Source of the DNA: Nemertoderma westbladi
Taxonomy: Eukaryota; Animalia; Xenacoelomorpha
NCBI GenBank assembly: GCA_032718475.1
Contig: JAUCBJ010000397.1
Location: 1 to 48,855 of the forward strand
Direction: 5' to 3'
DNA length: 48,855 nucleotides
Under the pieces are notes generated by a model that was not told where the DNA came from, did no database searches, and saw nothing but the letters and a program-made list of their open reading frames with translations. The position numbers and the translations under genes are program-made. Below are positions 1-43,989 of the stretch, piece by piece (positions within the stretch are counted from its first letter, which is position 1; the number at the start of each line of letters is the position of its first letter).

Positions 1-1803
1 AGTCAGCGTGTATCCTACGTAGTTCTAGTGGCTGTAGGCCTAGATATGTCAATCTCTCAATATATGGGATATCTGGGTCCAGATGACAACGAAAAAACAG
101 ACGCTTTGAAAAGTAGCGCTGCACGGCTTCAAGTTTATCAGTGAAACCAAAGAAAGGTACTCCCTTTGTAAATGGATTACAAACACAACTAGCATATTCT
201 AGAACGGGCCGAGTGTATGATTTATAAGCCGTAATCAGCGCTTCTCTGTTAGACGTAATAAAACACCGAAATATTTTATTAACAGACCGATATGCTGACG
301 CTGTAATATTCAAAATATGCTCTGAGAAATTAAGCCTACTATCAATAGTTACACCAAGATCACGGTGGTAAGCATGCACAGAGTCTAGATATTTGCCGTT
401 AATTGTATACATTGGAGATACTAAAGTACCGCCATTTATTGTTAAAACCTTACATTTGTCGTTGGCAACACTCATATATACATATTAACATATTATTATA
501 TTACTCTTTCTTACTAATATAACTGTTCCATTACTCATTACTATATTATATATATATATTATTATATTACTCTTTCTTACTAATATAACTGTTCCATTAC
601 TCATTACTATATTATATATAAATATTAACATATTATTATATTACTCTTTCTTACTAATATAACTGTTCCATTACTCATTCCTATATTATATATACATATT
701 AACATATTATTATATTACTCTTTCTTACTAATATAACTGTTCCATTAATTATTACTATATTATATATATATATTATTATATTACTCTTTCTTACTAATAT
801 AACTGTTCCATTACTCATTACTATATTATATATACATATTAACATATTATTATATTACTCTTTCTTACTAATATAACTGTTCCATTACTCATTCCTATAT
901 TATATATACATATTAACATATTATTATATTACTCTTTCTTACTAATATAACTGTTCCATTACTCATTACTATATTATATATATATATATTATTATATTAC
1001 TCTTTCTTACTAATATAACTGTTCCATTACTCATTCCTATATTATATATGCATATTAACATATTATTATATTACTCTTTCTTACTAATATAACTGTTCCA
1101 TTACTCATTACTATATTATATATACATATTGACATATTATTATATTACTCTTTCTTACTAATATAACTGTTCCATTACTCATTACTATATTACATATATA
1201 TATATTATTATATTACTCTTTCTTACTAATATAACTGTTCCATTACTCATTCCTATATTATATATGCATATTAACATATTATTATATTACTCTTTCTTAC
1301 TAATATAACTGTTCCATTACTCATTACTATATTATATATATATATATTATTATATTACTCTTTCTTACTAATATAACTGTTCCATTACTCATTCCTATAT
1401 TATATATGCATATTAACATATTATTATATTACTCTTTCTTACTAATATAACTGCTCCATTACTCATTACTATATTATATATACATATTAACATATTATTA
1501 TATTACTCTTTCTTACTAATATAACTGTTCCATTAATTATTACTATATTATATATACATATTATTATATTATTATATTACTCTTTCTTACTAATATAACT
1601 GTTCCATTACTCATTACTATATTATATATACATATTAACATATTATTATATTACTCTTTCTTACTAATATAACTGTTCCATTACTCATTACTATATTATA
1701 TATACATATTGACATATTATTATATTACTCTTTCTTACTAATATAACTGTTCCATTAATTATTACTATATTATATATACATATTATTATATTACTCTTTC
1801 TTA

Positions 1804-1993
1804 GGCCGCGTTCACACTACCGAGTGAAAGTCAAAGTCAAAAGAAAATAAATATAGCTAGCTAACAATAATAAATAATAATAAATTATATAGGCCTAATA
1901 TAATACATAATGGCGTTCTAGAAAAAAATAAATTTCTTGTTATTTTTTTTACATTTTGTCTTTTGACTTTGACTCGGTAGTGTGAACGCGGCC
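1804..1993. mobile_element. PIF/Harbinger-like MITE inserted in the minisatellite
   Basis: TIRs GGCCGCGTTCACACTACCGAGT…ACTCGGTAGTGTGAACGCGGCC; flanks TTA/TAA at a TTA of the satellite unit (TWA-type target, one mismatch). Confidence 0.85.
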
Positions 1994-2031
1994 TAACTAA
2001 TATAACTGTTCCATTAATTATTACTATATTA

Positions 2032-12850: not shown

Positions 12851-13196
12851 AATTAGTACTACATACAGTACAATACGGCCCTTATATTCCAAAACCGTGT
12901 ATTTCGATTTTTGACGAAAATGACATATTTATATATTTGGAATCAGAATTTCAAGGCGCATCTTTCTATCCAGGCCCGAAGCTTGAAAATCAAATGCAAA
13001 GAAAATAGTTTGCGACCAAAACCGTGTATCTCGATATTTTTTGAAGCAATTTTTATCAAAACCATTTATCTGAGAAAAATTAACCGAAAAAAACTAACTG
13101 ACCAATAGGATGCAAGATCTCCATGATTATTAATTTATCAAAACAGTGTATCTCTGTTTCGGAAATTCGTTTAATTTATCAAAACCATCTATCTGG

Positions 13197-13416
13197 AGAT
13201 AGACGGTTTTGGACCACCTCTAGAACAAATCTTTCTCAGATAGACGGTTTTGGACCACCTCTAGAACAAATCTTTCTCAGATAGACGGTTTTGGACCACC
13301 TCTAGAACAAATCTTTCTCAGATAGACGGTTTTGGACCACCTCTAGAACAAATCTTTCTCAGATAGACGGTTTTGGACCACCTCTAGAACAAATCTTTCT
13401 CAGATAGACGGTTTTG
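13197..13416 (+). repeat. 41-bp minisatellite, ~5.3 near-identical copies
   Basis: Unit AGATAGACGGTTTTGGACCACCTCTAGAACAAATCTTTCTC. Confidence 0.95.
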
Positions 13417-13879
13417 ATTACAAATTCAATGTTCAATAAATGTTCTAGAACAATGTTCTGAACAATTCATTTGCAATTGTCGCGGCCAGCTACCGTTTAC
13501 CGGTAGTTAATTCATAAATCAACAATTCAGGCATTAACAAACTACACAAAGCGTTATGATAACATATTGTAAAGTTTCAGTTTAGGTAAACAACCATGAG
13601 AGTTTAGGTAACAAGAGTTTACCAATACTTATAATATTAATAATATTATCATATTACTGTACCATACTGTTTTGTCATCTATAAGTAATTCATCGATCAA
13701 AGAATCAGAACAACAGTTTTTTTAAACACTTTCTTGACTCTTGGTAGCAAGCCAGTTTGTTTATTTTATATAAAGCATAGCACTGATATTCGTGTAAGTA
13801 AACAATGTCTGCCACACGCAAACAATATCCTCTACGGAGGAAGGCTATACCCCCTAATGATTCCAATGCTTCTGGTAAA

Positions 13880-14290: not shown

Positions 14291-14776
14291 TGTATTAAAC
14301 TGATCGTTACATTAAACTGACTGTTCATTTTATTTTATTCCCTTACCACAAATTGTAGTTTATTAGTTAATGGTTTTCAATATTAATGGCAATTATTAAT
14401 TAATAATATAAAAGTTTATATTTAAACATAGAGATAAACGGTTTTGTTAAAAAATAAAATATAAAAGATAGCTGGTTTTGAAGAATAAAAAATGAGTTAG
14501 GCGATTTTGATCCAAAAAAAGTTACATGTTTGCGGCGCAAGTATATTGACCAATACTTGCTATGGTGTACTATCGGTGTACTATGGTGTTTTTAACATAT
14601 TTCCCTTTATTTTCACGCCTTAATTTTGCCTCAGGTGGATTCGGCACATGTGTTTACCCTATATTGAATATTAATATGGAAATTTCCCGAATTAATCCCA
14701 GTAAGAATTTAAAATGAATAACCATAAAAAACCGGAATGGTTTTTGGCCATTTTCTGAAAATGCCAAAAATTGAGA

Positions 14777-15466
14777 TAAAACAATAAAATAGGACATGGG
14801 GTCTATTCCCTCAGATACTACCTAGCATTTAGGGCCACTTGGGCCACTGTTAGTACCCAGGCACTAGGCCCATCAAAAAACACAAAATACCAAATCGATT
14901 TTAGTGCTACATAACCCAACCCAACTACCACAAGAAAAATTGCACCAAACCATACAGTAACTACAGGTTCCGGTAAGTATTGCACGAAATAGGCTATCCC
15001 ATAAATTACGAAAAATATATAGGACATTTTATCCGCCAAATTTTGTCCGGTCATTGTCTTAATTTAGTGGTGCAGTTTTGTTAGGGTAGAGGTGGGGTTC
15101 GTGGCACACTGCTGATGAGGAGAACCACGAATCCCAGGGTTCAGTGTTTAAATCTCCGAAACCCTTTTATTTTTATAAAATTTATTACTTAGACTTACCT
15201 TTTTGGCGGACAAAATGTCCTATATATTTTTCGTAATTTATGGGATAGCCTATTTCGTGCAATACTTACCGGAACCTGTAGTTACTGTATGGTTTGGTGC
15301 AATTTTTCTTGTGGTAGTTGGGTTGGGTTATGTAGCACTAAAATCGATTTGGTATTTTGTGTTTTTTGATGTGCCAAGTGCCTGGGTACTAACACTGGCC
15401 CAAGTGGCCCTTAAATGCTAGGTAGTATCTGAGGGAATAGACCCCATGTCCTATTTTATTGTTTTA
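14777..15466. repeat. Near-perfect inverted duplication, arms 14777-15040 and 15202-15466, 161-bp spacer
   Basis: Arms are reverse complements with only a few differences; they produce twin ORFs 14818-15054(-) and 15203-15421(+). Confidence 0.95.
15094..15165 (+). ncRNA. Candidate hammerhead ribozyme with atypical strand order
   Basis: CUGAUGA 15112-18, GAAA 15158-61, GUU 15139-41; helices 15106-11/15142-47, 15119-23/15153-57, 15136-40/15161-65 and 15094-104/15125-35. Activity untested. Confidence 0.6.
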
Positions 15467-16704
15467 ATATTAATATTACAATCCCTCTAAAGTCGTGGTT
15501 GTCAACATCATATAAAAATTGAGATACACGGTTTTGGAATATAAGGGCCGAATAGAGCAACTGGTATGTACAGTATACCTTGCATTTCACCTGCCGGGTC
15601 GTTACGAATGTTACCAGTATATTGCCAATAAAACTCCAAGGCTGTAAGACACAAGTTGGGGGGAGTCAACACCGTCCTTTATATTGATAGAATTATATTG
15701 TATTATTTTTCACTACAGTATATTGTATTGTGTGCTACATTTACACTACACTATCAAGGCGATGGGATGGGGAGTATATTTAATACTTTTATTTGATAAA
15801 ATCAAAAATTTTAATAAACTAAATTTGAGAGCATCAACAGTAGTACCTACTGTATACAGTAGTATAATAGATACTACTGTAGACTAGCAAGCCTGGCGCG
15901 CAAAGCGCGCCAGTTTTGCTAGTCTAACAAAAAAGAGAGGATAAGCAAAAACAAATTCACAACTCATACAGTAAGGCCTATGTACCAATAATTTGTATTC
16001 TACTACGTTTCTGTATCTTGCTAATAGCACCAAAAAGTCTATAAAAATAAATTATGCGGATCACTTTCAATTTCATGGTTTTTTCCTTGGCAACGGATTT
16101 TACAAAGCTATCTGTTGACTATTAATTAATTGCTGGGATTTTTATTGATGTAAAATTATGGTTTTGTTCAGAAATGAAAAAATTAGGAAGCTCTCGACCG
16201 GTGGTTAAACCAGCGCTATACGTAACGTCCGTGTATACCGTGTATACGTGACGCTATACGTAACGTCCATTTGAAGAATACCAGGTTATCACTTTTCGGT
16301 CAAAATTTTATTCAATTTTTATATGTGAAGAGTTTGTATTTTTTTAATTACTCCTTATTGTGTGTTTTATGACGCTGATTTCTTTCTTTTAACCTGTATA
16401 CTAATTCGTTTATTATTTTGGTTAGTTTCATCCCTGGGTTTTTAGTGAAAATCTGATAACCTTATATTGTTCACATGAACGCAATAATATGCGAAAAATC
16501 TTCGCTAACATTTAATAGAAATTATTAAAATTCCTTGCAATGAAATTGTATTTATTTTTTTATCACTTACATACTTTGTATATCAGACAATTTTTATATG
16601 TTGTCAATTGTTGCAAGTTACGTTAATATACTGTATATTGGATATTTGTGTGCGTACATACTGGATAATAAGTTATTTGTTGCTCTAATCTGTGTAGCAA
16701 ACAT

Positions 16705-18477
16705 CTACGCGAGGCCGTTACCGGCAGGGTCAATAGTTTCAGCGTTACATTCTCCACCTCCTACTCCAACTCTACCATCGCGAGAGGCCGGGGAATCTGC
16801 TCGATACACAATCGTTGATGTTTTTCCTGTCCAGAATTTCTGGAATTCTCCACGTAGAACCGCCACCAGACATACCGACCCAACGCAGGCGGGCACGAGA
16901 TAAAACAGAGCTGGTTGGCCCTTCTTCGTAACCATAGACGCAACGAAAGCCGCAATCAACCCCGCTGTGTACGCCGTAGCGCACACAACGAAGTAAATCG
17001 GGAAGTTGTTTCTAATTTCTTTATCGAAACTCTTGCAGTACACAACCAAAATACCTGGCACTAGGATATCCCCTAAACCGAGCATCGAGATGTGTGACAG
17101 AGCACAGCTGTGGTAAGGCGAGTACATCAACTGAGGTACCTTGAGTAACAGCGGAATGGATTCACCGGAAGTGGAGCCGAATCCAGTAGCAACCTGCTCC
17201 ATGATACTAGGGGTCCCTTCCGCGGTAAACAACGGAGAAATAAACACCATAAAGATGTCGTATACATAGAAAGCGCACAGGAGGATTGCGCACAGCCTAC
17301 AGTTGTCAACTCGCATTGTTTCTAACAAGTTGACACATAGAGCTATTGCTAAGATGTCCTGGAGTATCCAGGCATAATAAGCGTTGCGTTCAACCACCCA
17401 GAACACAACAAAACCAACGCAGCAAACCAAGAGGATTAAATCCAAGAGCATAGTGTAACGCCTAAGGGATGCCACTCGCCACTCAATTGTGGCCCTGGCC
17501 AGTAAGGGACGCAGTAGTGAGAATATGGCTCGAACTGACCCCAAGGCGAATACTCCTATAACTACGTAGATAAAAATATCATAAAAGAAGTAGAGCAACA
17601 GCAATATTGACACCACGCCAATTACCAAGGGAGTCACAAGGGCGGCAGTTATATTGGTTAAGTTTAGTTGAACTCCGCACAATGTGTCGGTAGTCGACGC
17701 AGCAGATATACACGGGTCAGACCTAGGGGTGGGGCTGGTCACAGGAGGTCTGATTGAGGTGGGGGCGGGGCTGCTCACAGGGGGGTCTATTATGTATGGT
17801 GCCGTTGGTGATGTCCTTTGTGTGGAGGGGCTAATGTTGTTGGTGATGACGTCAGGCAAACAACGAACATCCTCAGATATTCTCATTCGCAGAGTAAGTT
17901 TGGTGGGAGGAACAGCGTAAAAAGCACTAAATATAACCGTACCAATGGCCATGATTCCCAACACGAAGATCTGTATATCCCATGAACGGATCTCAGGTGC
18001 GTACAGATTGGCTTTCAAGCTCGAACCTAGTTCCTGAATTGCTTTCAAGTTTTTCGATGAAATTGTAAAAGTCGGTATCTGAAAAACGCTAAATTTTATT
18101 TTATCAGTTACATTTAATTTTCCACAATTAACTAGAATTAAGGCGTTTCCTCCAGCAGCTTTAACATTGGCAGCGCGATCTGCAATTGAACAGTTACTTA
18201 AGCAGCTGACGGCAACGTAAGTTTGGGCCTGTTGGTCTGGAAGGTCTGAGCAACCATCCGTGTCGAGTATAGTAAGATCATTTGTCGGAGTCCCAATTAC
18301 TAGGGGCAACTCTGATCTGTTGGGTTGGTAAATGTCGACACAGACTTCAATGTAGGGTTTATCTGAGGTTTTGACTCGCATAACACCATCAAAAGATTTT
18401 GAGTAAACCAATTGCCATGGCAACATTGTCATGTATATTATGGTAAACAAGGTAAATAGATTGCAGTTAGACGCCAT
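16705..18477 (-). CDS. SPPL2: Signal peptide peptidase-like 2 (SPPL2A/B-type) GxGD intramembrane aspartyl protease, 590 aa, single coding exon
   Basis: Signal peptide, PA-like luminal domain, multiple TM helices, catalytic YD (FYVYDIFMVF), GLGD (MLGLGDILVPG) and QPAL (GQPALFYL) motifs. Confidence 0.95.
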   Translation of the reverse strand: MASNCNLFTLFTIIYMTMLPWQLVYSKSFDGVMRVKTSDKPYIEVCVDIYQPNRSELPLVIGTPTNDLTILDTDGCSDLPDQQAQTYVAVSCLSNCSIADRAANVKAAGGNALILVNCGKLNVTDKIKFSVFQIPTFTISSKNLKAIQELGSSLKANLYAPEIRSWDIQIFVLGIMAIGTVIFSAFYAVPPTKLTLRMRISEDVRCLPDVITNNISPSTQRTSPTAPYIIDPPVSSPAPTSIRPPVTSPTPRSDPCISAASTTDTLCGVQLNLTNITAALVTPLVIGVVSILLLLYFFYDIFIYVVIGVFALGSVRAIFSLLRPLLARATIEWRVASLRRYTMLLDLILLVCCVGFVVFWVVERNAYYAWILQDILAIALCVNLLETMRVDNCRLCAILLCAFYVYDIFMVFISPLFTAEGTPSIMEQVATGFGSTSGESIPLLLKVPQLMYSPYHSCALSHISMLGLGDILVPGILVVYCKSFDKEIRNNFPIYFVVCATAYTAGLIAAFVASMVTKKGQPALFYLVPACVGSVCLVAVLRGEFQKFWTGKTSTIVYRADSPASRDGRVGVGGGECNAETIDPAGNGLA

Positions 18478-27321: not shown

Positions 27322-28421
27322 TTGATCGGACCGGGATCCTGGGATCGGTCTGGGATCCCGGTTGATTGGTCTGGGATCCCGGGATTGGTCCGGGATCCCG
27401 GGCTCGGTCTGGGATCCTGGGATTGGTCTGGGATCACGGGATCGGTGTGGGATCCCGGGATTGGTCTGGAATCCCTGGATCGGATCCAGGTATTGGTCTG
27501 GGATCCAGGGATTGGTCTGGGATCCCGGGATCGGTCTGGGATCCCGGGATTGGTCTGGAATCCCGGATCGGATCCCGGGATCGGTCCGGTATCCCGGGAT
27601 TGGTCTGTGATTCCGGGATCGGTCTGGGATCCCGGGATTGGTCTGGGATACCGGGATTGGTCCGGTATCCCGGGATTGGTCTGGGATCCCGGGATTGGTC
27701 TGGGATCCCGGGATCGGTCTATAATCCCGGGATTGGTCTGGGATCCCGGGATTGGTCTGGGATCCCGGGATCTCGCGATTGGTCCGGAATCGGTCTGTGA
27801 TCCCGGGATTGGTCTGGGATCCCGGGATTGGTCTGGGATCTCGGGATTGGTCCGGGATCCCGGGATTGGTCCGATATCCCGGGATTGATCTGGGATCCCG
27901 GGATTGGTCTGGAATCCCGGATCGGATCCCGGGATCAGTCTGGGATCCAGGGATTGGTCTGGGGTCCCGGGATCTGTCTGGGATCCCGGGATCGGTCTGG
28001 GATCCCAGGATCAGTCTGGGATCCCGGGATCGGTCTGGGATCCCAGGATCAGTCTGGGATCCCGGGATCGGTCTGGGATCCCGGGATTGGTCCGGGATCG
28101 GACCAGTAACCAGGGATTGGTCTGGGATCCCGGGTTCAGTCTGGGATCCCGGGATCGGTCTTGGATCCCGAGATCAGTCTTGGATCCCGGGATCGGTCTT
28201 GGATCCCGGGATCGGTCTTAGATCCCTGGATCGGTCTGAGATCCCAGGATCGGTCTGAGATCCCGGTACTGGTCTGGGATCCCGGGATTGGTCCGGGATC
28301 GCTCCGGTATCCCGGGATTGGTCGGGGATTCCGGGATTGGTCCAGTGATTCCGGGATTGGTCTGGGATCCCAGGATCTGTCTGTGCTCCCGGGATTGTTC
28401 TGGGATCCCGGGATTGGTCTG
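27322..28421 (+). repeat. 19-bp minisatellite, left part
   Basis: Unit GGGATTGGTCTGGGATCCC; continues after the LTR element. Confidence 0.97.
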
Positions 28422-28867: not shown

Positions 28868-31800
28868 TCAGTTTCTCCCAATAAACGTTGTCGTAGAAAT
28901 CGACGATTTCTCCAAAGTGTATGGCCTGAAGGTAGGTAGCTTCACTCTGTAATCTCTATATTTCCCGACGGAAACGATTTTGCCACTTCGATCCCACAAT
29001 TTCGATTTAGGGTTTTGAATCCAAACTTCCATGTCAACCTTCAATGGTGTTAGATCGTGCGCTGTAGCATTATATTGTGATGCTACTTTATCTTCCAACT
29101 TTATTTGTTTGTCAACAAAATCGGCATGTTGTACCCATGTTTTCATAAAATTCGAATGATATATTGGCAACCGATTTCGAATATTATGGCCAAAGATCAT
29201 CTCATTTGGTGATGCACCCGATGATCTCGGCGTATTGCGGTATTCCATCAGTGCTTCTTGGAATTGTTCATCGTTGATATGTATGTTATCCATTTTCAGT
29301 AACATATTTTTAACAGTTTTAACCGTTGCCTCTGCGAGTCCATTCGCCTGCGGGTAATGCGGACTACTTGGTTCCCATTTTGCTCCCCGCTGTGTTAGAA
29401 ATTTATTAAAACTTCAAGCCATAAACTGCGGCCCCCCATCGGATTTAAATAATTTTGGAGCTCCTGTTAAGATGAAGAATTTTCTGACGACGAATTCCAC
29501 ATGTGATGAATTTGGTACATGACTCCACTCAGCAAGGAGGGGATATCCAGAGAAACGATCAACATAAAGTGTCGTCCTGCAGCCTCAAACAGGTCAGCGG
29601 ATACACTCTCGAATGGGTACTCAGTTTGCGTTTGGTTTTTAATGTCTCCTTTGGTAGACTTTCTCGTCGAGTTTGACATTCATCGCATCGATTAATCATA
29701 TCCATGATATCCTGATTCATCCCTGGCCAAAACACAGCCAAGCGTGCACATTGTTTTGTTCTAGTACACCCGAGGAGATGAGAAGTATGTAAAATAGTTA
29801 ATATATCCTGTTGTTTGGATGTGGGAATAACTATTTTAGAACCATAGAGTACCAAACCTCGTTCAATGGATAACATATCTCTCAATGAATAAAATTTCTT
29901 TATATATGGTGAATAATTGTTTCTATGAAATCCCATTTTGAATTTCGTCATATAGTCATCATCTCTTTTACAAGAATCTCGAAGGTTCTCAAGTATAGGA
30001 TCATTGATACTGTAATTTTCAGTTTCTTCCTCGTCATTATCACATGTACCTGTACCAGAAATAATAGAGATCTGAACTCTATTTAATGAGAAGTATTCTT
30101 CGGAGTTCTCTTCAGGGTTATCGATCAGAGCTCTGCTCAGACAATCAGCAATGCGGTTCTCAGAGCCTTTCCACCATTCAACTGCAAAGCTATATGTATA
30201 CTGAAGATCAGATTTAATTTTTTGTAATTTCACATTTTCAACTTGAACTAATGTTTGTTTATTGAATATACTCGTCAGTGGCCTATGATCAGTGACCACA
30301 TGAAAGTGTTGCAACCCGGCAAGATAAACTCGACATTTCTCTATTGCATATTTAATGGATAATGCTTCTAGTTCGACCGTGGCATACCGACTTTCAGGGT
30401 CAGTTAGAAACCTGCTGCCACATGTAACTAAATGCCAGCCGTCGTTGTGCTTCTGTAACAAGTCATACCCAAAGCCATTCAGGCGACTTGCATCACATTC
30501 TAGAATAACTTTAATTTTGGGTTGAATATACTCAAAATCGGTGATTTTGTTAATAAGTCTTTCGTTTTATTAAATGCATTTCTATGGGTTTCTTCCCATA
30601 AAAAACAGTTTCTATTACTCAGAAGATCGCGTAATGGTGTAGCGACTGAGCTTAATTCTGAGTTGAAACAGCCTAGTTAGTTCGCTAAGCCCATGAATGA
30701 CTGTAAATCGCTTATATTGCATGGTTCTGGGAATTCTTTTATTGCGGCTATTTTCTTTGGGTCCACAGATATACCAGCATCGGATACAACATATCCAGCG
30801 AACTTTACAGACTTCTGTCCCAAAATAAATTTACTTTTATTCAGTGTAATGCCGTGAGTTCGACATCGATCTAGCACTTCTCTACTCGACAAATATTTTC
30901 TTCCAAGTTATTGCCTTCGATGATCACATCGTCAATGATCTTTCTAGTACCTTGTAAACCTTCCAAAGCTGCATCTGCACTAAGGTTATAATGGTACAAG
31001 GCGGATATAAAATCCATTGGTGCGCGTGTGTATCGGTATCTGCCCCATGGCGTTATAAATGTGGAAATTCAGCAAATTCATGGAAGTTCATGCAGCTCCA
31101 CTTGCCAGTATCCTTTCTGGGCATCCAGGGTTGTAAAATACTTTGAAGTAGGACTAATTTCTGACACTAAATCAAAAGGTGATGGTGCGTTATGAACTAC
31201 GCGCTTCACTTCCAAGTTCAACCTCATCAAATCGACTGTCATGCATATGCCTCCTGCGGGTTTGGGCACGATGACGCAGGGGTGACACCATTCTGTCGAT
31301 CTATCACCTATACGTTCAATTACTCCGGTTTTTCCATATTTGCTAGCTCTTCTTTCACTTGTTCACGATATGCGTATGGAACAGGGCGAGCCGCATATGT
31401 TATAAACGGTGTAGCATTATCTTTCAACTCAATTATTATCTTCTCACTATTCATAGGTTTCAATTCGTCTGATGACGCGAAACATCTTTGTATTTATTGA
31501 TCAACTTTTGTTTCAACTTATCCATATCAGTGAGGTTGTCTCGAACATTTGAAATTTTGCTAATAATAAAATTATTTGAGTTTATTGGTTCTGGAAAGTT
31601 TTGGTGCACGATATTGATGTTTTTACATGCATTAAATGAAAGATATACCTCATCCTTTGGTACATCAGAGCAGAATATTACCCGCTCAGTACATTCATTT
31701 ATACCTATTTTTAGTTTCATATCAAAAGATCCTAAACTTGATAGTTTATTTCCATTAACAGATTGAAGATTTTCCTTCATTATTGACAGTTTATTTGTCC

Positions 31801-32050
31801 TTATACCAAGTTTCCTTAAGATTTGGGCTCCAGCAACAGTAGCCTGTGCACCTGTATCGGCAACTGTTTTAATACAACCTAGGTGGCTATTTCCAGTTGT
31901 ATAGAAATCAATTGAGATCGTTGGTTTCTCTAATTCATCTCGAATTGGTGCAATGTTTAGTTTAATCATGCCAGTTTGTTTTACTGGACCTTTATAATTG
32001 TTGTATTTTGGTGTCCTACATTTCTTAGCAAGATGACCGGTTTTATGCAT
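28868..32050 (-). pseudogene. Disrupted pol (protease, RT, RNase H, integrase)
   Basis: ADTGAQ (protease), TLDAQKGYWQV (RT), RYATVELEAL and TDHRPL (RNase H), zinc-binding His/CxxC and ALMEYRNTP (integrase); split by stops and frameshifts. Confidence 0.9.
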
Positions 32051-33267
32051 TTATTACATGTCCTTCCACGAGCTTTGCATGGTTTTCCCTCCTCATGGGG
32101 CCATGGTTCACCGCAACGATAGCAGTCATTATTGCTCGAATGTTCCGATCCTGAATTATCTCGCCTCGGTGTTTTTGATCGCCATGCAGATCGGTTTCTA
32201 TCTGATTTGTAACGAATTTTTGAGTGAGCTCGACCTCGAGTGTTCGAATTTATTATTTCACTACATTGCGATTTGAACCGGTTGTCGTCTTTTTGAGCCA
32301 GTTTGCGGTTTCTACAGAGAGTTACAGTTTTCTTGTAGATTCAATGTCGGTTTCTTAGCCAACAATTCTTGTCGGACCTCATCATCCGTTATACCGCACG
32401 TACTGATGGTTGTCAGCCAGTCATCTTCAGACATAGAAGCTAATCCAGCATCCTCATCTAGCTCACGAAGACGGACGTAAAAATCGTCGAAACTTTCCTC
32501 GGACTTTCGGATTGTTCACGTCGAATGAGTTCATAACGATCGACTGCGATATTCTGCTGAATTCGTAGATATAGTCGAATTTCCTCCAACACCTCGTCAA
32601 TGTTGAGCGTTGTATCCTGCTGTATTCCCATCGCGTGTTCTACGCGTCGCAGAAAGTTTGGGGAACAATACAACCAAAGAGTGGTGGTGACCTGGTCGCT
32701 TCGAGATCGGTCACCTAATTTCGTAACGTGGCAGTAGTTTATCCACGTTGTCTTCCATTTTTTAAACTCTCCGAATGTTATTTTGTCTTCAATTTGGTTC
32801 GGAGGTCTCACAGTCAGTTTTGTCCCCATCATATCAGTGCGGTTTCCGGTTGCAGTTGTGCGTTGCATTCCTTCCTCGTCCCGTCTCCTGGGATTTGAGT
32901 CTGGTGGGTGTTCTCCACTGCGTATCACATTGAGAAATTCACTCATTTGTTCCCGCTGGTGTTCGAATATTCGTTCCATAAAATTAATCATCCCCCGACT
33001 GTCGGGTTCGGTGATAGCAGTTTCGTCGTATTCTCCAACAGTTTCCCCATATTCTTCCTCTGCGTCCTCCTCCGTAGGTGGATCGTTGGTAGGGTTCTTT
33101 CTAGCCGCTTTATTGTGGCTACGAATCTTCCGGCGCATTTCTTTAGTCGCCGTTCTTTCGTCGTATCTTAAACCGAGAATATCCAATATTTTTTTTAGTT
33201 TTACTCGATCGATGTCATCGTCGGAAAGCAGTAGTATTTCGGAACGGGTTTCAACGAACTGCGCCAT
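32051..33267 (-). pseudogene. Disrupted gag
   Basis: 269-aa ORF 32458-33267, frameshifted continuation leading to a zinc-knuckle remnant (KTGHLAKKCR). Confidence 0.8.
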
Positions 33268-33470
33268 GTTATGTTATATAAATATATAGAAATCTATATA
33301 AACATTACGACATTATAATATTATTATAATAGAACATTCATTATGTAACAGGTTAGCAACACATGCATACCGACACCACAGTACTAAACTAATACACTGT
33401 ATACTATACATATAACATTATATTATATTAGATATATTGTAGGCCTAAGCAACAGTATGGATATATAACA

Positions 33471-33660
33471 GTCTGGGATCCCGGGATTGGTCTGGGATCC
33501 CGACATTGGTCCAGGGATTCCGGGATTGGTCTGGGATCCCGGGATTGGTCTGGGATCCCGGGATTGGTCTGGAATCCCGGGTCGGATCCCGGGATCGGTC
33601 TGGGATCCAGGGATTGCTCTGGGATCCCGGGATCGGTCCGGGATGCAGATCGTCTGGATC
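33471..33660 (+). repeat. 19-bp minisatellite, right part
   Basis: Same unit as 27322-28421, resuming in register after the TSD. Confidence 0.95.
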
Positions 33661-41004: not shown

Positions 41005-41321
41005 CTGAAACAATAAATTATATTCATAACTATTTCAGTATTGACATTGTGTGAAGTATCATTATGACAGGTTGATGATAAGCAAATGTGCAAAATTAAT
41101 ATATGTACAATTTTGGAATAAAATTGTTTCAATTTGGTCAACGCTTAATAATCGAATTATAATTTGTCTAAAATAAAATCTAACAAGCAAGATGTTGTTA
41201 AAAACAGGGTATAAGAAATAAATAAATAAGAAAAATAAATAAATAATAAGAAATAAATAAATAAGTTGTCAAGACATCTTCAACGTAGGTCAGGAATCCG
41301 GAACTGACAGACCACACTTAC

Positions 41322-43225
41322 TTGATGTCAACATAGTTTGACCCGTCGGCAAACTTAAAGGCTGTAAATGTAAATGACTGTTTTCTACTATCATCATTGT
41401 GTTGAAATACTACTGTTTCGTCAACAGCGCAACCATTATCAACCAGATAATGGGTGACTGATTCCTTCTCATCACCTGTGCTATGACAAGGCGTGCCATA
41501 ACAATTGTCAATAAATATTTCTAGATCCGTGTCAGTGGAATTTAGCGTGGCCATCAAAAGAATTCTCTCTCCCAGTTCTGAGTGTTGGACCGGTAGAAGT
41601 AAAAGGCTCTCAGAGTTCTCATGATACATATTTAATGTGAAATCAAATTCGCCGTCTCCACCAGTTAGGTCAGTGATGTTCCCTATAGGTGAATATATAT
41701 CTTCCAGGTTAGCATCTTCTACGTCATAGTCACATTCAACAGTTATGTAAATTGGCTTCAATCGAGTGATATTATCCTCTTCTGGAATAGGTGTACCTAT
41801 AGCTACATTACTATAAGTCAGCGTATCGTTGCCACTTTTGTATCTCATAAAGCCACACTCACTGGGAATTGTTTCCAACGTATGCTTACCATTTGTATAG
41901 TTGCCGTTGCAGTTACTGTTGCTGAAACTGAATATGTAGTTTTTCATTTGTGACGAAAAACTATCGTGTATTTCGACTTTAATCAAATTTGGTTCGCATA
42001 GCACGCTTGTAGTTGGGCAGGATATTTTGCATATTTCTGGAGTACTGTTCGTTGCTGGTGGTGGATTAGTTGTGGTCAAAAAGCCAGTTGTTCCCTCTGT
42101 TGCAACGGTTGTTGTGTGGTTTGGTTTTTTTGTTGTAGTTCTTGGTGGTGTGATTGTTTGGGTTGTGGTTATTGGTGGTGTGACTGTTTGGGTTGTGGTT
42201 ATTGGTGGTGTGATTGTTTGAGTTGTAGTTTTTGGTGGTGTGATTGTTTGGGTTGTAGTGGGTGGTTGTGTGATTGTTTGGGTTGTGGTTATTGGTGGTG
42301 TGATTGTTTGGGTTGTGGTTATTGTTGGTGTGATTGTTTGGGTTGTAGTTCTTGGTGGTGTGATTGTTTGGGTTGTAGTTTTTGGTGGTGTGATTGTTTG
42401 GGTTGTAGTTTTTGGTGGTGTGATTGTTTGGGTTGTAGTTCTTGGTGGTGTGATTGTTTGGGTTGTTGTGGGTGGTTGTGTGATTGTTTGGGTTGTAGTT
42501 CTTGTTGGTGTAATTGTTTCTGTTGTAGTTCTTGGTGGTGTGATTGTTTGGGTTGTAGTGGGTGGTTGTGTGATTGTTTGGGTTGTAGTTCTTGTTGGTG
42601 TAATTGTTTCTGTTGTAGTTCTTGGTGGTGTCCCTGAAGTTAGCATTGTAGTTGCTGTTGGTGTGGTTTTCTCAGTAGTTGGCGGTGCCGTTTGGATTGG
42701 TGTAGATGTTGATTCTGTAGTTGATGTACTGGTAGTGGTTACAAGGGGAGCAAAGAATTGGCATATGGATGGGTGGGTATCGTCTGCACAATTTACAGTA
42801 ATCCATCCTCCTTCTTGTACATCATATGTAACACAAAAACTTGTCAATGGATAATAATGTCGCCACTTATTTGTTCTGGTGTTTATTGTATCATCTGACC
42901 ACTTCCAATCTACCACAATGTTATCCTCAGTTATGGCTTCTAAACCAATCCATACCTCACTTACCATCAATTTACGATTCATCAACAACTCTATAGCATA
43001 GTCGCTATCGATATCCTTGTTCATTACGAGCAGAGCATTGTACTTATTCTGACAGAACTCTTTAGATCGATTCAATGTAGCTACCTGTACTTCAAGGACG
43101 TAACAAGTCTGGGCAACGATATCGTAATAGTAGTTGTCACCTTGGCAGCTATTTGAATCTAAAATACCTTCAACAAATGTCCCAACGAATAAAATTGATA
43201 ATATAAAAATACTCATTATTACCAT
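41322..43225 (-). CDS. Secreted C-type lectin domain, Thr/Pro mucin repeat and zona pellucida (ZP) domain protein, exon 1; ~676 aa spliced
   Basis: Hydrophobic signal peptide after Met 43225; CTLD (CY, WIGL, WKWSD); TTTQTITPPR repeats; ZP motifs (ECG, YSN, NCYGTP, LVDNGCAVD, FTFTAFKF); GTAAGT donor at 41321. Confidence 0.9.
42130..42630 (-). repeat. Coding 30-bp tandem repeat, ~17 copies (mucin linker)
   Basis: Period-30 repeat encoding TTT(Q/E)TIT(P/Q)(P/T)x. Confidence 0.95.
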
Positions 43226-43989
43226 TAAAATGTCAAGTAGATTATTAGCAATGCATGATAAATACCACTTCTGCAATTCGTTATATTGTAACCCACGTGA
43301 AACCAGCACATTTTTTAGTCTAAGATAAGATATAAATTGAATACCATAAATGAGTCATATGGATCATTTGACAATGTACACACATGTCATTTCCCAGTAA
43401 TACATTTCCTGCGTTTTCAATGACGCATACATCTGTAACATGAAAAGAATCTGATGCTGCAATACTATTTGTAATAAATGAATTGGTTTGAAAACATCCA
43501 ACAATCATTATATTGTCACGTCGTCAATTGTCTCATGTAATGATTGTTTTTTTGTCTGTTTTTTTCCTTGCTTGCATCAAATTCATATAAGACAATATTG
43601 TCGCCAATGTACCAAGGGGTTGGTCCCGAGTTTATTGCTGTTCGTTGTTGCTCAGTGTCCCACATTATTCTACCCCCATCTACTTTGTTTGGACTCCATA
43701 AAAAAGAGAAAATGTTACCATGGGCTCAATTACGCAGAATATATCCTACTGTAGGCTAATCTCAAATCGAATGCAGACGACATGCTTGTGACGGCTGCTA
43801 TGCCGAACACAACGGAACATTTCGTGTTATGAAATCACTTCGATGTGACTCATACCGACCGGTATTGACATAAGGCTACCAGCGGCGTATATAATCCCAC
43901 ACATTTCTTTACCATATACCATCTACAACACCATGAAACTTTATATATTAATAAGAGGATCCCTACCAATGCATACAGTGGAAGAGCTA

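What the first reader, a model, noticed from the sequence alone, without database searches (positions are those of the whole stretch)
15094..15165. Complete hammerhead core in a permuted, multiply pseudoknotted strand order
Seen: stem I ACACTG(15106-11)/CAGTGT(15142-47); CUGAUGA(15112-18); stem II GGAGA(15119-23)/TCTCC(15153-57); GAA(15158-60); stem III ACCCT(15161-65)/AGGGT(15136-40); cleavage triplet GUU ending 15141. A fourth 11-bp helix GGGGTTCGTGG(15094-104)/CCACGAATCCC(15125-35), with one G-U pair, uses up the linker. All canonical core nucleotides are present. Known: type I/II/III hammerheads are circular permutations with the cleavage strand outside stem II; here it lies between the two strands of stem II. 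Inference: either an unusual pseudoknotted monomer (the 5-nt link joins the ends of stems I and II, which are neighbours in the active fold) or a dimer-dependent ribozyme. A competing nested minimal type I fold would have a defective core (GAAU at 15129-32).
Basis: partly seen in the sequence, partly recalled or inferred. Interest (0 to 1): 0.88.

Follow-up and report, generated by a model that had tools for sequence, protein, structure and literature searches.

The report
Scrambled hammerhead ribozyme in animal retrotransposon
This stretch has every part of a self-cutting hammerhead RNA in a rare scrambled order first described from two soil-DNA sequences; here it sits in a repeated element that is likely a Penelope-type jumping gene, the same fold can be read in published roundworm elements reported to lack such an RNA, and cutting is predicted but untested.

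Summary
The block order is C-S-G, the type-CSG non-circular permutation that Eckert et al. 2023 found in two soil-metagenome sequences and showed to cleave slowly; their CSG has the same fourth helix. So the topology is not new. The setting appears to be. The motif lies in a 735-bp insertion (14779-15513) with a 13-bp target-site duplication, a 262-bp inverted 5' copy and a 49-bp one-sided tail. The family is highly repeated in reads of this organism. These features match Penelope-like elements (PLEs). Read by eye in Craig et al. 2021's supplement, 8 of 8 nematode Naiad PLE consensus sequences carry a full CSG fold near their 3' end. Their stem sequences differ from the window's while all four helices are kept. 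Naiads were reported to lack canonical hammerheads. No convincing CSG fold appeared in 303 viral, prokaryotic or metagenome loci. Best reading: a probably monomeric CSG hammerhead that cuts the element's RNA after U15141. Cleavage, monomer versus dimer, Naiad membership and host phylum are untested or unresolved. Verdict: new member of a known kind in an apparently new biological home. Interest 0.65.

The parts
14766..14778 (.). left target-site duplication, 13 bp
   Evidence: identical to 15514-15526 and not extendable; empty-site joint 14765->15514 with 13 letters fitting either side in 3 of 4 runs
14779..15040 (-). inverted 5' copy of 15202-15464 (262 bp, 98%)
15049..15513 (+). 3' portion of the repeat family (5'-truncated copy, pLTR-like)
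   Evidence: contigs of all 4 runs continue 5' of 15049 with one shared other sequence; many contigs leave the element at 15503-15515
15094..15104 (+). P4 5' strand (stem I-stem II joining helix)
   Evidence: same helix in CSG-1/2
15106..15123 (+). block C: stem I 5' strand, CUGAUGA, stem II 5' strand
15125..15135 (+). P4 3' strand, joined to stem III with no linker
15136..15147 (+). block S: stem III strand, H17 = U15141 (GUU triplet, predicted cut between 15141 and 15142), stem I 3' strand
   Evidence: site inferred by analogy with CSG-1/2, which cleave at the analogous position
15148..15152 (+). 5-nt linker UUAAA between stems I and II
   Evidence: CSG-1/2 also have a 5-nt linker starting UUAA
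15153..15165 (+). block G: stem II 3' strand, GAA, stem III strand
15465..15513 (+). 49-bp tail present only at the 3' end
   Evidence: absent from the inverted copy; a 30-40 bp one-sided tail is a PLE feature
15514..15526 (.). right target-site duplication, 13 bp

Best explanation
The motif has the type-CSG hammerhead fold, and it likely cuts the RNA of a Penelope-like retrotransposon (probably Naiad clade) after U15141, predicted to act as a monomer. Shown: the sequence, the four possible helices, the C-S-G order, and the insertion anatomy (13-bp duplication, inverted 5' copy, tail, repeated family). Inferred mechanism: P4 and stem III form first as two adjacent hairpins. Their loops then pair twice (stems I and II), which assembles the ordinary hammerhead core. 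P4 acts as a strut in place of the usual loop I-loop II contact. Cutting would trim or monomerise tandem element transcripts at a fixed point in the terminal repeat, the role proposed for type I hammerheads in other PLEs. This genomic copy is a 5'-truncated, ORF-less insertion that kept the ribozyme intact.
For: (1) All core nucleotides and four helices are present, beyond chance. (2) Block order, fourth helix and 5-nt UUAA-led linker match CSG-1/2, which cleave at the predicted site at 0.004 and 0.026 per min. (3) PLE hallmarks per Craig et al. are present: inverted 5'-truncated copy and one-sided tail. In one search, 6 of 15 listed joints link the inverted arm to the body at six different breakpoints, at low depth (17-50). 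Summed depth over the ribozyme is 15,000-42,000 against 150-420 in the left flank in X1, X3 and X4 (not a copy number). (4) By eye, 8 of 8 nematode Naiad consensus sequences carry the full CSG fold near the 3' end. Helix lengths are P4 9-18 bp, I 5-6, II 4-5, III 6-12. The pair next to the cut is G-C here and in CSG-1/2, A-U in seven Naiads and U-A in one. Naiad_Hpol has the same GUU triplet and 0-nt P4-III join. The two Pristionchus elements have the same unpaired C and A flanking P4. (5) A rough length check allows a monomer: II + core + III about 36 A against P4 + link about 37 A (rise per bp is an assumed textbook value).
Against: No cleavage test exists for this sequence. No RT or GIY-YIG ORF of the element lies in the window (motif scan) and the genome is not held, so Naiad membership rests on anatomy and ribozyme type. 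The 49-bp tail is longer than the 30-40 bp reported. Craig et al. list a TSD for only one Naiad (4 bp) and (TA)n targets for many, unlike this 13-bp duplication. Several non-nematode Naiad ends seen in the same file put GAAA before CUGANGA, so they are not CSG. Host phylum is unresolved (best hit 30%). No covariation within this family was obtained: none of the 40 listed of 56 difference rows at >=5% falls in 15094-15165. The Naiad pairings were read by eye, not computed. U at position 17 is usually slower than C (recalled).
Confidence: 0.75

Rival explanations
1. Same ribozyme, but it works as a domain-swapped dimer or multimer. Each RNA is a coaxial P4/III rod with a loop at each end, and the loops pair between two molecules or two tandem repeats. 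This would restrict cutting to tandem transcripts.
For: P4 and III abut with no linker, so a monomer needs a sharp bend there. Eckert et al. flag this join as not obviously compatible with the crystal structure. Other PLE hammerheads are thought to act as dimers (PMC4209133). In the Pristionchus Naiads P4 (11 bp) is short for II + III (5 + 12 bp). I saw no RNA-concentration series in parts 2-6 of Eckert et al.
Against: Stem III here is a stable 5-bp G-C-rich helix, unlike the 1-2 bp stem III that forces dimers. The lengths fit a monomer here and, by the same rough arithmetic done by hand, in Hpol, Hcon and CSG-1. Only one copy lies in the window.
Confidence: 0.2
2. The ribozyme is real, but the carrier is not a Naiad. 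It could be a non-autonomous retrozyme-like repeat, another PLE clade, or the 3' UTR of a LINE-type element.
For: No ORF is seen. The 13-bp duplication is LINE-like (recalled). Animal retrozymes are proposed to be non-autonomous PLE derivatives (10.64898/2026.07.22.740005). Unchecked scan notes report rewired hammerheads in HERO 3' UTRs.
Against: An inverted duplicate of the 3' part plus a one-sided tail is the PLE pattern. No joint from the 3' end back to the 5' part, as in a tandem retrozyme array, is among the 15 listed of 16. The only genomic elements in which I saw CSG folds are Naiads.
Confidence: 0.35
3. A MITE or fold-back DNA transposon with 262-bp terminal inverted repeats, whose spacer happens to hold the motif.
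For: The two arms are 98% identical and begin 2 bp inside a TA dinucleotide on each side.
Against: The empty site shows a 13-bp duplication and an asymmetric 49-bp tail inside the insertion. Other copies continue with a different shared sequence 5' of 15049 and have other inversion breakpoints.
Confidence: 0.04
4. A chance arrangement, or a dead relic that no longer cleaves.
For: Activity is untested, and Rfam finds nothing.
Against: 0 equivalent hits in 304 Mb of shuffles, no core defect, and the same four-helix design with different sequence in ten published sequences.
Confidence: 0.06

Closest known systems
Type-CSG hammerhead ribozymes CSG-1 and CSG-2 (Eckert, Friedrich, Weinberg, Weinberg 2023, PMC10085705; read: main-text parts 2-6 of 8 and all 28 'CSG' passages of the supplement)
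   Same: C-S-G block order, intact core, 6-bp stem I with G2.1-C1.1, 5-bp stem III, 5-nt I-to-II linker starting UUAA, and a helix joining the 5' leader to the strand after stem II.
   Different: Different stem sequences. P4 is 11 bp with a 0-nt join to stem III (theirs 8 bp, 2 nt). The triplet is GUU (theirs GUC). It lies in an animal genome inside a mobile element, whereas theirs were 2 unique sequences from soil metagenome DNA with none in genomes of known organisms. Their RNAMotif descriptor as printed (II-III linker <=10 nt) misses this motif, which needs 12.
Naiad Penelope-like elements (Craig et al. 2021, PMC8557442; read: 12 of 20 main-text passages, supplement part 1 of 59, and search passages of File S5)
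   Same: Inverted 5'-truncated copy, one-sided tail, high copy number. CUGANGA and GAAA lie 39 nt apart here; their 'HHR_half_core' class is 35-50 nt. A CSG fold is readable in all 8 nematode consensus sequences.
   Different: No ORF is available here to test the clade. This copy has a 13-bp TSD and a 49-bp tail. The paper describes Naiads as lacking canonical hammerheads and reports no permuted fold in the passages I saw.
Type I and minimal hammerheads of Penelope, Neptune and Hydra pLTRs and of retrozymes (PMC4209133, passages; bioRxiv 10.64898/2026.07.22.740005, parts 1-2 of 5)
   Same: A hammerhead in the terminal repeat of a PLE-type element, with a proposed role in cutting tandem precursors.
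   Different: Those are C-G-S three-way junctions with a weak stem III and are thought to need dimers. This one is multiply pseudoknotted with a stable stem III.
Type-SGC hammerheads (HRIMA-1; PMC10085705)
   Same: [quoted passage not shown]
   Different: The chain opens at a different point, and SGC forms were found almost only in metatranscriptomes.

Membership tests
Type-CSG hammerhead | 5'-to-3' block order C, S, G with uninterrupted blocks | tested here: met
   15106-23, 15136-47, 15153-65; definition
Type-CSG hammerhead | All conserved core nucleotides (CUGANGA, GAAA, UH) | tested here: met
Type-CSG hammerhead | Stems I, II and III pair and cross as pseudoknots | tested here: met
   6/5/5 Watson-Crick pairs possible, mutual crossing; actual folding not measured
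Type-CSG hammerhead | [quoted passage not shown] | tested here: met
   11-bp P4
Type-CSG hammerhead | Covariation in the helices | tested here: inconclusive
   Across families all four helices are kept with different sequence (by eye). No computed alignment, and none within this family.
Type-CSG hammerhead | Site-specific self-cleavage after H17 | not testable with these tools
   needs an in vitro assay
Type I/II/III hammerhead | Nested three-way junction (CGS, GSC or SCG order) | tested here: not met
   Alternative S blocks in 14900-15400 give only 4/2, 4/2 and 5/3 bp for stems I/III; no Rfam hit
Penelope-like element | Inverted 5'-truncated copy and one-sided tail | tested here: met
   criteria (tail 49 bp against 30-40 reported)
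Penelope-like element | PLE-type RT and GIY-YIG endonuclease ORF | not testable with these tools
   This copy has no ORF and no genome is held
Naiad clade | N-terminal GIY-YIG, CxC motif, C-terminal RT | not testable with these tools
   upstream part of the family not recovered
MITE / DNA transposon | TIRs at both termini shared by all copies, short fixed TSD | tested here: not met
   49-bp tail outside the right arm, 13-bp duplication, variable breakpoints

The most novel reading that the evidence does not exclude
Type-CSG hammerheads are the native ribozyme of a Naiad retrotransposon lineage in animals, and the two soil-DNA founders of the class come from soil animals' elements. CSG and the GAAA-first forms at other Naiad ends would be one family wired in the reverse cyclic order and opened at different points, which would explain why Naiads seemed to lack hammerheads. 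The P4 helix would be a length-matched strut or a monomer/dimer switch.
Probability: 0.5. Interest if true: 0.78.

Novelty: new member of a known kind. Interest (0 to 1): 0.65.

Why it matters
Type CSG rested on two similar sequences of unknown origin, and its authors called the evidence for its biological relevance weaker than for type SGC. This copy and the eight nematode Naiads give it a host, a plausible job and divergent sequences for a covariation test. They also bear on a stated puzzle: Naiads were thought to spread without the hammerhead that other PLEs carry. The short, G-C-rich, zero-linker version here is a direct test case for how a fully pseudoknotted hammerhead folds, and whether it does so as a monomer.

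Tried and rejected
Rfam scan: no hammerhead; 5 weak miRNA-like matches, all below their gathering scores. No genome is held. No RNA holder was listed among 8 sequencing runs, which says nothing on expression. Pattern scans for CSG folds: viral contigs gave 50, 4 and 9 loci. Metagenomes gave 120 loci of about 230 stretches (34 of 64 parts scanned). Prokaryote genomes gave 120 of about 170 (45 of 64 parts). Of these 303 loci, 6 pass stems 3/3/3, 1 passes 4/4/4 and 0 pass 5/4/5. The patterns were narrow and two scans were cut short, so this is no proof of absence. Host placement by the signal-peptide-peptidase ORF failed (best hit 30% to a nemertean). A six-frame scan with recalled PLE protein motifs gave 2 short chance-level matches. 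My first idea, that all 'HHR_half_core' Naiads are CSG, is only partly borne out: 3 of the 8 so labelled (Parc, 3_Nbra, Hpol) are CSG, and I did not resolve the other 5. A few contigs join other sequence at 15135 and 15145, close to the predicted cut; they are too few to count as evidence. Variation among copies inside the ribozyme below 5% remains unexamined. No paper placing type CSG in animals or retroelements was found in searches; the library lacks most subscription journals, and bioRxiv supplements were not seen.

Full report
Observation. [quoted passage not shown] Five of six helix pairs cross; P4 and stem III are adjacent hairpins with no base between them. A descriptor for this order finds only this site in the window. 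In 3113 dinucleotide shuffles (304 Mb, both strands) it found 17 loose hits (4/3/4), 2 at 6/5/5 with G-U allowed, none at 6/5/5 all Watson-Crick, and none with a fourth helix of 7 bp or more. Nested alternatives are weak: the other GAA sites give 0-1 bp of stem II, and other cleavage strands in 14900-15400 give at most 5/3 bp for stems I/III. Rfam has no hammerhead hit.

What the RNA is. Eckert et al. 2023 (PMC10085705; main-text parts 2-6 of 8 and supplement passages read) divide the hammerhead into blocks C, G and S and name six orders. The window has C-S-G. They found type CSG in two unique sequences, five in all, from soil metagenome DNA, and none in genomes of known organisms. Both cleaved at the predicted site, at 0.004 and 0.026 per min. 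Their alignment shows the same joining helix and a 5-nt linker starting UUAA between stems I and II. The window's stems differ in sequence, P4 is longer, the P4-III join is 0 nt and the triplet is GUU. Their printed RNAMotif descriptor allows 10 nt between stem II and stem III. My re-implementation misses the window motif at 10 and finds it at 12 or more.

Where it sits. The window looks like animal DNA: an SPP-like gene, a lectin/ZP-domain ORF, and LTR and LINE remnants. The phylum could not be placed. The motif lies between 262-bp arms that are 98% complementary. Contigs from four DNA runs of one organism (three samples, three studies) were laid on 14500-15800. Three of the four runs hold a joint 14765->15514 with 13 letters fitting either side, and the window has an exact 13-bp repeat at 14766-78 and 15514-26. 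The insertion is therefore 14779-15513. The empty site may be an allele or a paralogous copy of the flanking repeat. The last 49 bp have no counterpart in the left arm. Contigs of all four runs continue 5' of 15049 with one shared other sequence, so the left arm is not a fixed terminus. Six of the 15 listed joints link the arm to the body at six different breakpoints, at depth 17-50. Summed depth over the ribozyme is 15,000-42,000 against 150-420 in the left flank in X1, X3 and X4. The tool warns that this is not a copy number, so I read it only as highly repeated. An inverted 5'-truncated copy and a one-sided tail are the PLE features listed by Craig et al. 2021 (PMC8557442). Against this, their tail is 30-40 bp and they rarely discerned TSDs.

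Relatives. Craig et al. report that Naiads lack canonical hammerheads but that eight have a half core with GAAA 35-50 nt away; here the gap is 39 nt. I searched their consensus file for core words and folded the passages by eye. All 8 nematode Naiads carry a complete CSG fold near the 3' end (names from header order). Pairs in P4/I/II/III are: Ppac and Parc 11/6/5/12; 1_Nbra 12/6/5/11; 2_Nbra 13/5/5/6; 3_Nbra 9/5/4/6; Hcon 15/6/5/11; Hpol 18/5/5/9 with GUU; Asuum 11/6/5/6+5 with one inserted U after the core. Five have a 0-nt P4-III join like the window. The pair beside the cut is G-C in the window and CSG-1/2, A-U in seven Naiads and U-A in Asuum. This is a by-eye reading and not a full survey of the 54 Naiads. 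Several non-nematode ends that I saw (Bfor, the three Acropora, Ptep) have GAAA before CUGANGA and are not CSG. That agrees with unchecked scan notes on a split-core form. A word search of those notes for an intact nematode CSG returned nothing.

Mechanism. Shown: sequence, possible pairings and insertion anatomy. Inferred: on the + strand transcript P4 and stem III fold first (the MFE contains both). Their loops then pair twice to make stems I and II and close the standard core, and the RNA is cut after U15141. A rough length check allows a monomer in which P4 runs back beside the II/III stack (36 against 37 A; assumed rise per bp). The role would be to cut tandem or read-through element transcripts at a fixed point of the terminal repeat, as hypothesised for PLE hammerheads; Craig et al. 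note that this function is still unclear. The main rival is a domain-swapped dimer. It is natural for a two-loop rod and is proposed for other PLE hammerheads (PMC4209133). Eckert et al. themselves flag the short P4-III join as a structural puzzle. My odds: selected CSG fold 0.93, cleavage in vitro 0.8, monomer 0.75, PLE 0.85, Naiad 0.6.

Novelty. The topology is known, and the testable defining features of type CSG are met. Eight paper searches returned no report of type CSG in animals or retroelements; a 2026 paper (PMC13725137, two passages) cites the 2023 work for alternative permutations and has no occurrence of 'CSG'. The library is incomplete. I file this as a new member of a known kind in an apparently new setting, and score interest 0.65 because it gives a two-sequence class a host and bears on why Naiads seemed to lack hammerheads.

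Noticed in passing
window 1801-1996: A 196-bp element with about 46-bp perfect terminal inverted repeats, inserted at the end of a 74-bp tandem array (556-1793). It has TTA/TAA at its ends, like a Harbinger-type MITE (recalled). It gives the weak MIR841 match.
   Followed up: partly
window 16705-18477 (-): An intronless 590-aa signal peptide peptidase-like gene (PA and A22B domains), only 30% identical to its best hit; possibly a retrocopy or a fast-evolving lineage.
   Followed up: partly
window 41318-43309 (-): A long ORF with a C-type lectin domain, Thr-rich mucin-like repeats and the start of a ZP domain.
   Followed up: no
window 28868-33273 (-): A degraded LTR retrotransposon (gag-like, protease-like, RNase H and integrase pieces).
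   Followed up: no
window 12873-13457, 14420-14490, 15514-15553: The target site lies in another repeat whose short motif recurs in both orientations and in a perfect 41-bp tandem array (13197-13416), so the insertion is nested in an older repeat.
   Followed up: partly
window 27324-28421 and 33471-33644: The same G-C-rich 19-bp minisatellite flanks both sides of the LTR-element remnant.
   Followed up: no
PMC8557442 File S5: Naiad_Bfor, Amil, Aacu, Anas, Ptep: 3' ends show cleavage strand, then GAAA, then CUGANGA, with the stem II 5' strand apparently upstream of the cleavage strand. This looks like the CSG chain opened between the core and stem II (by eye).
   Followed up: partly
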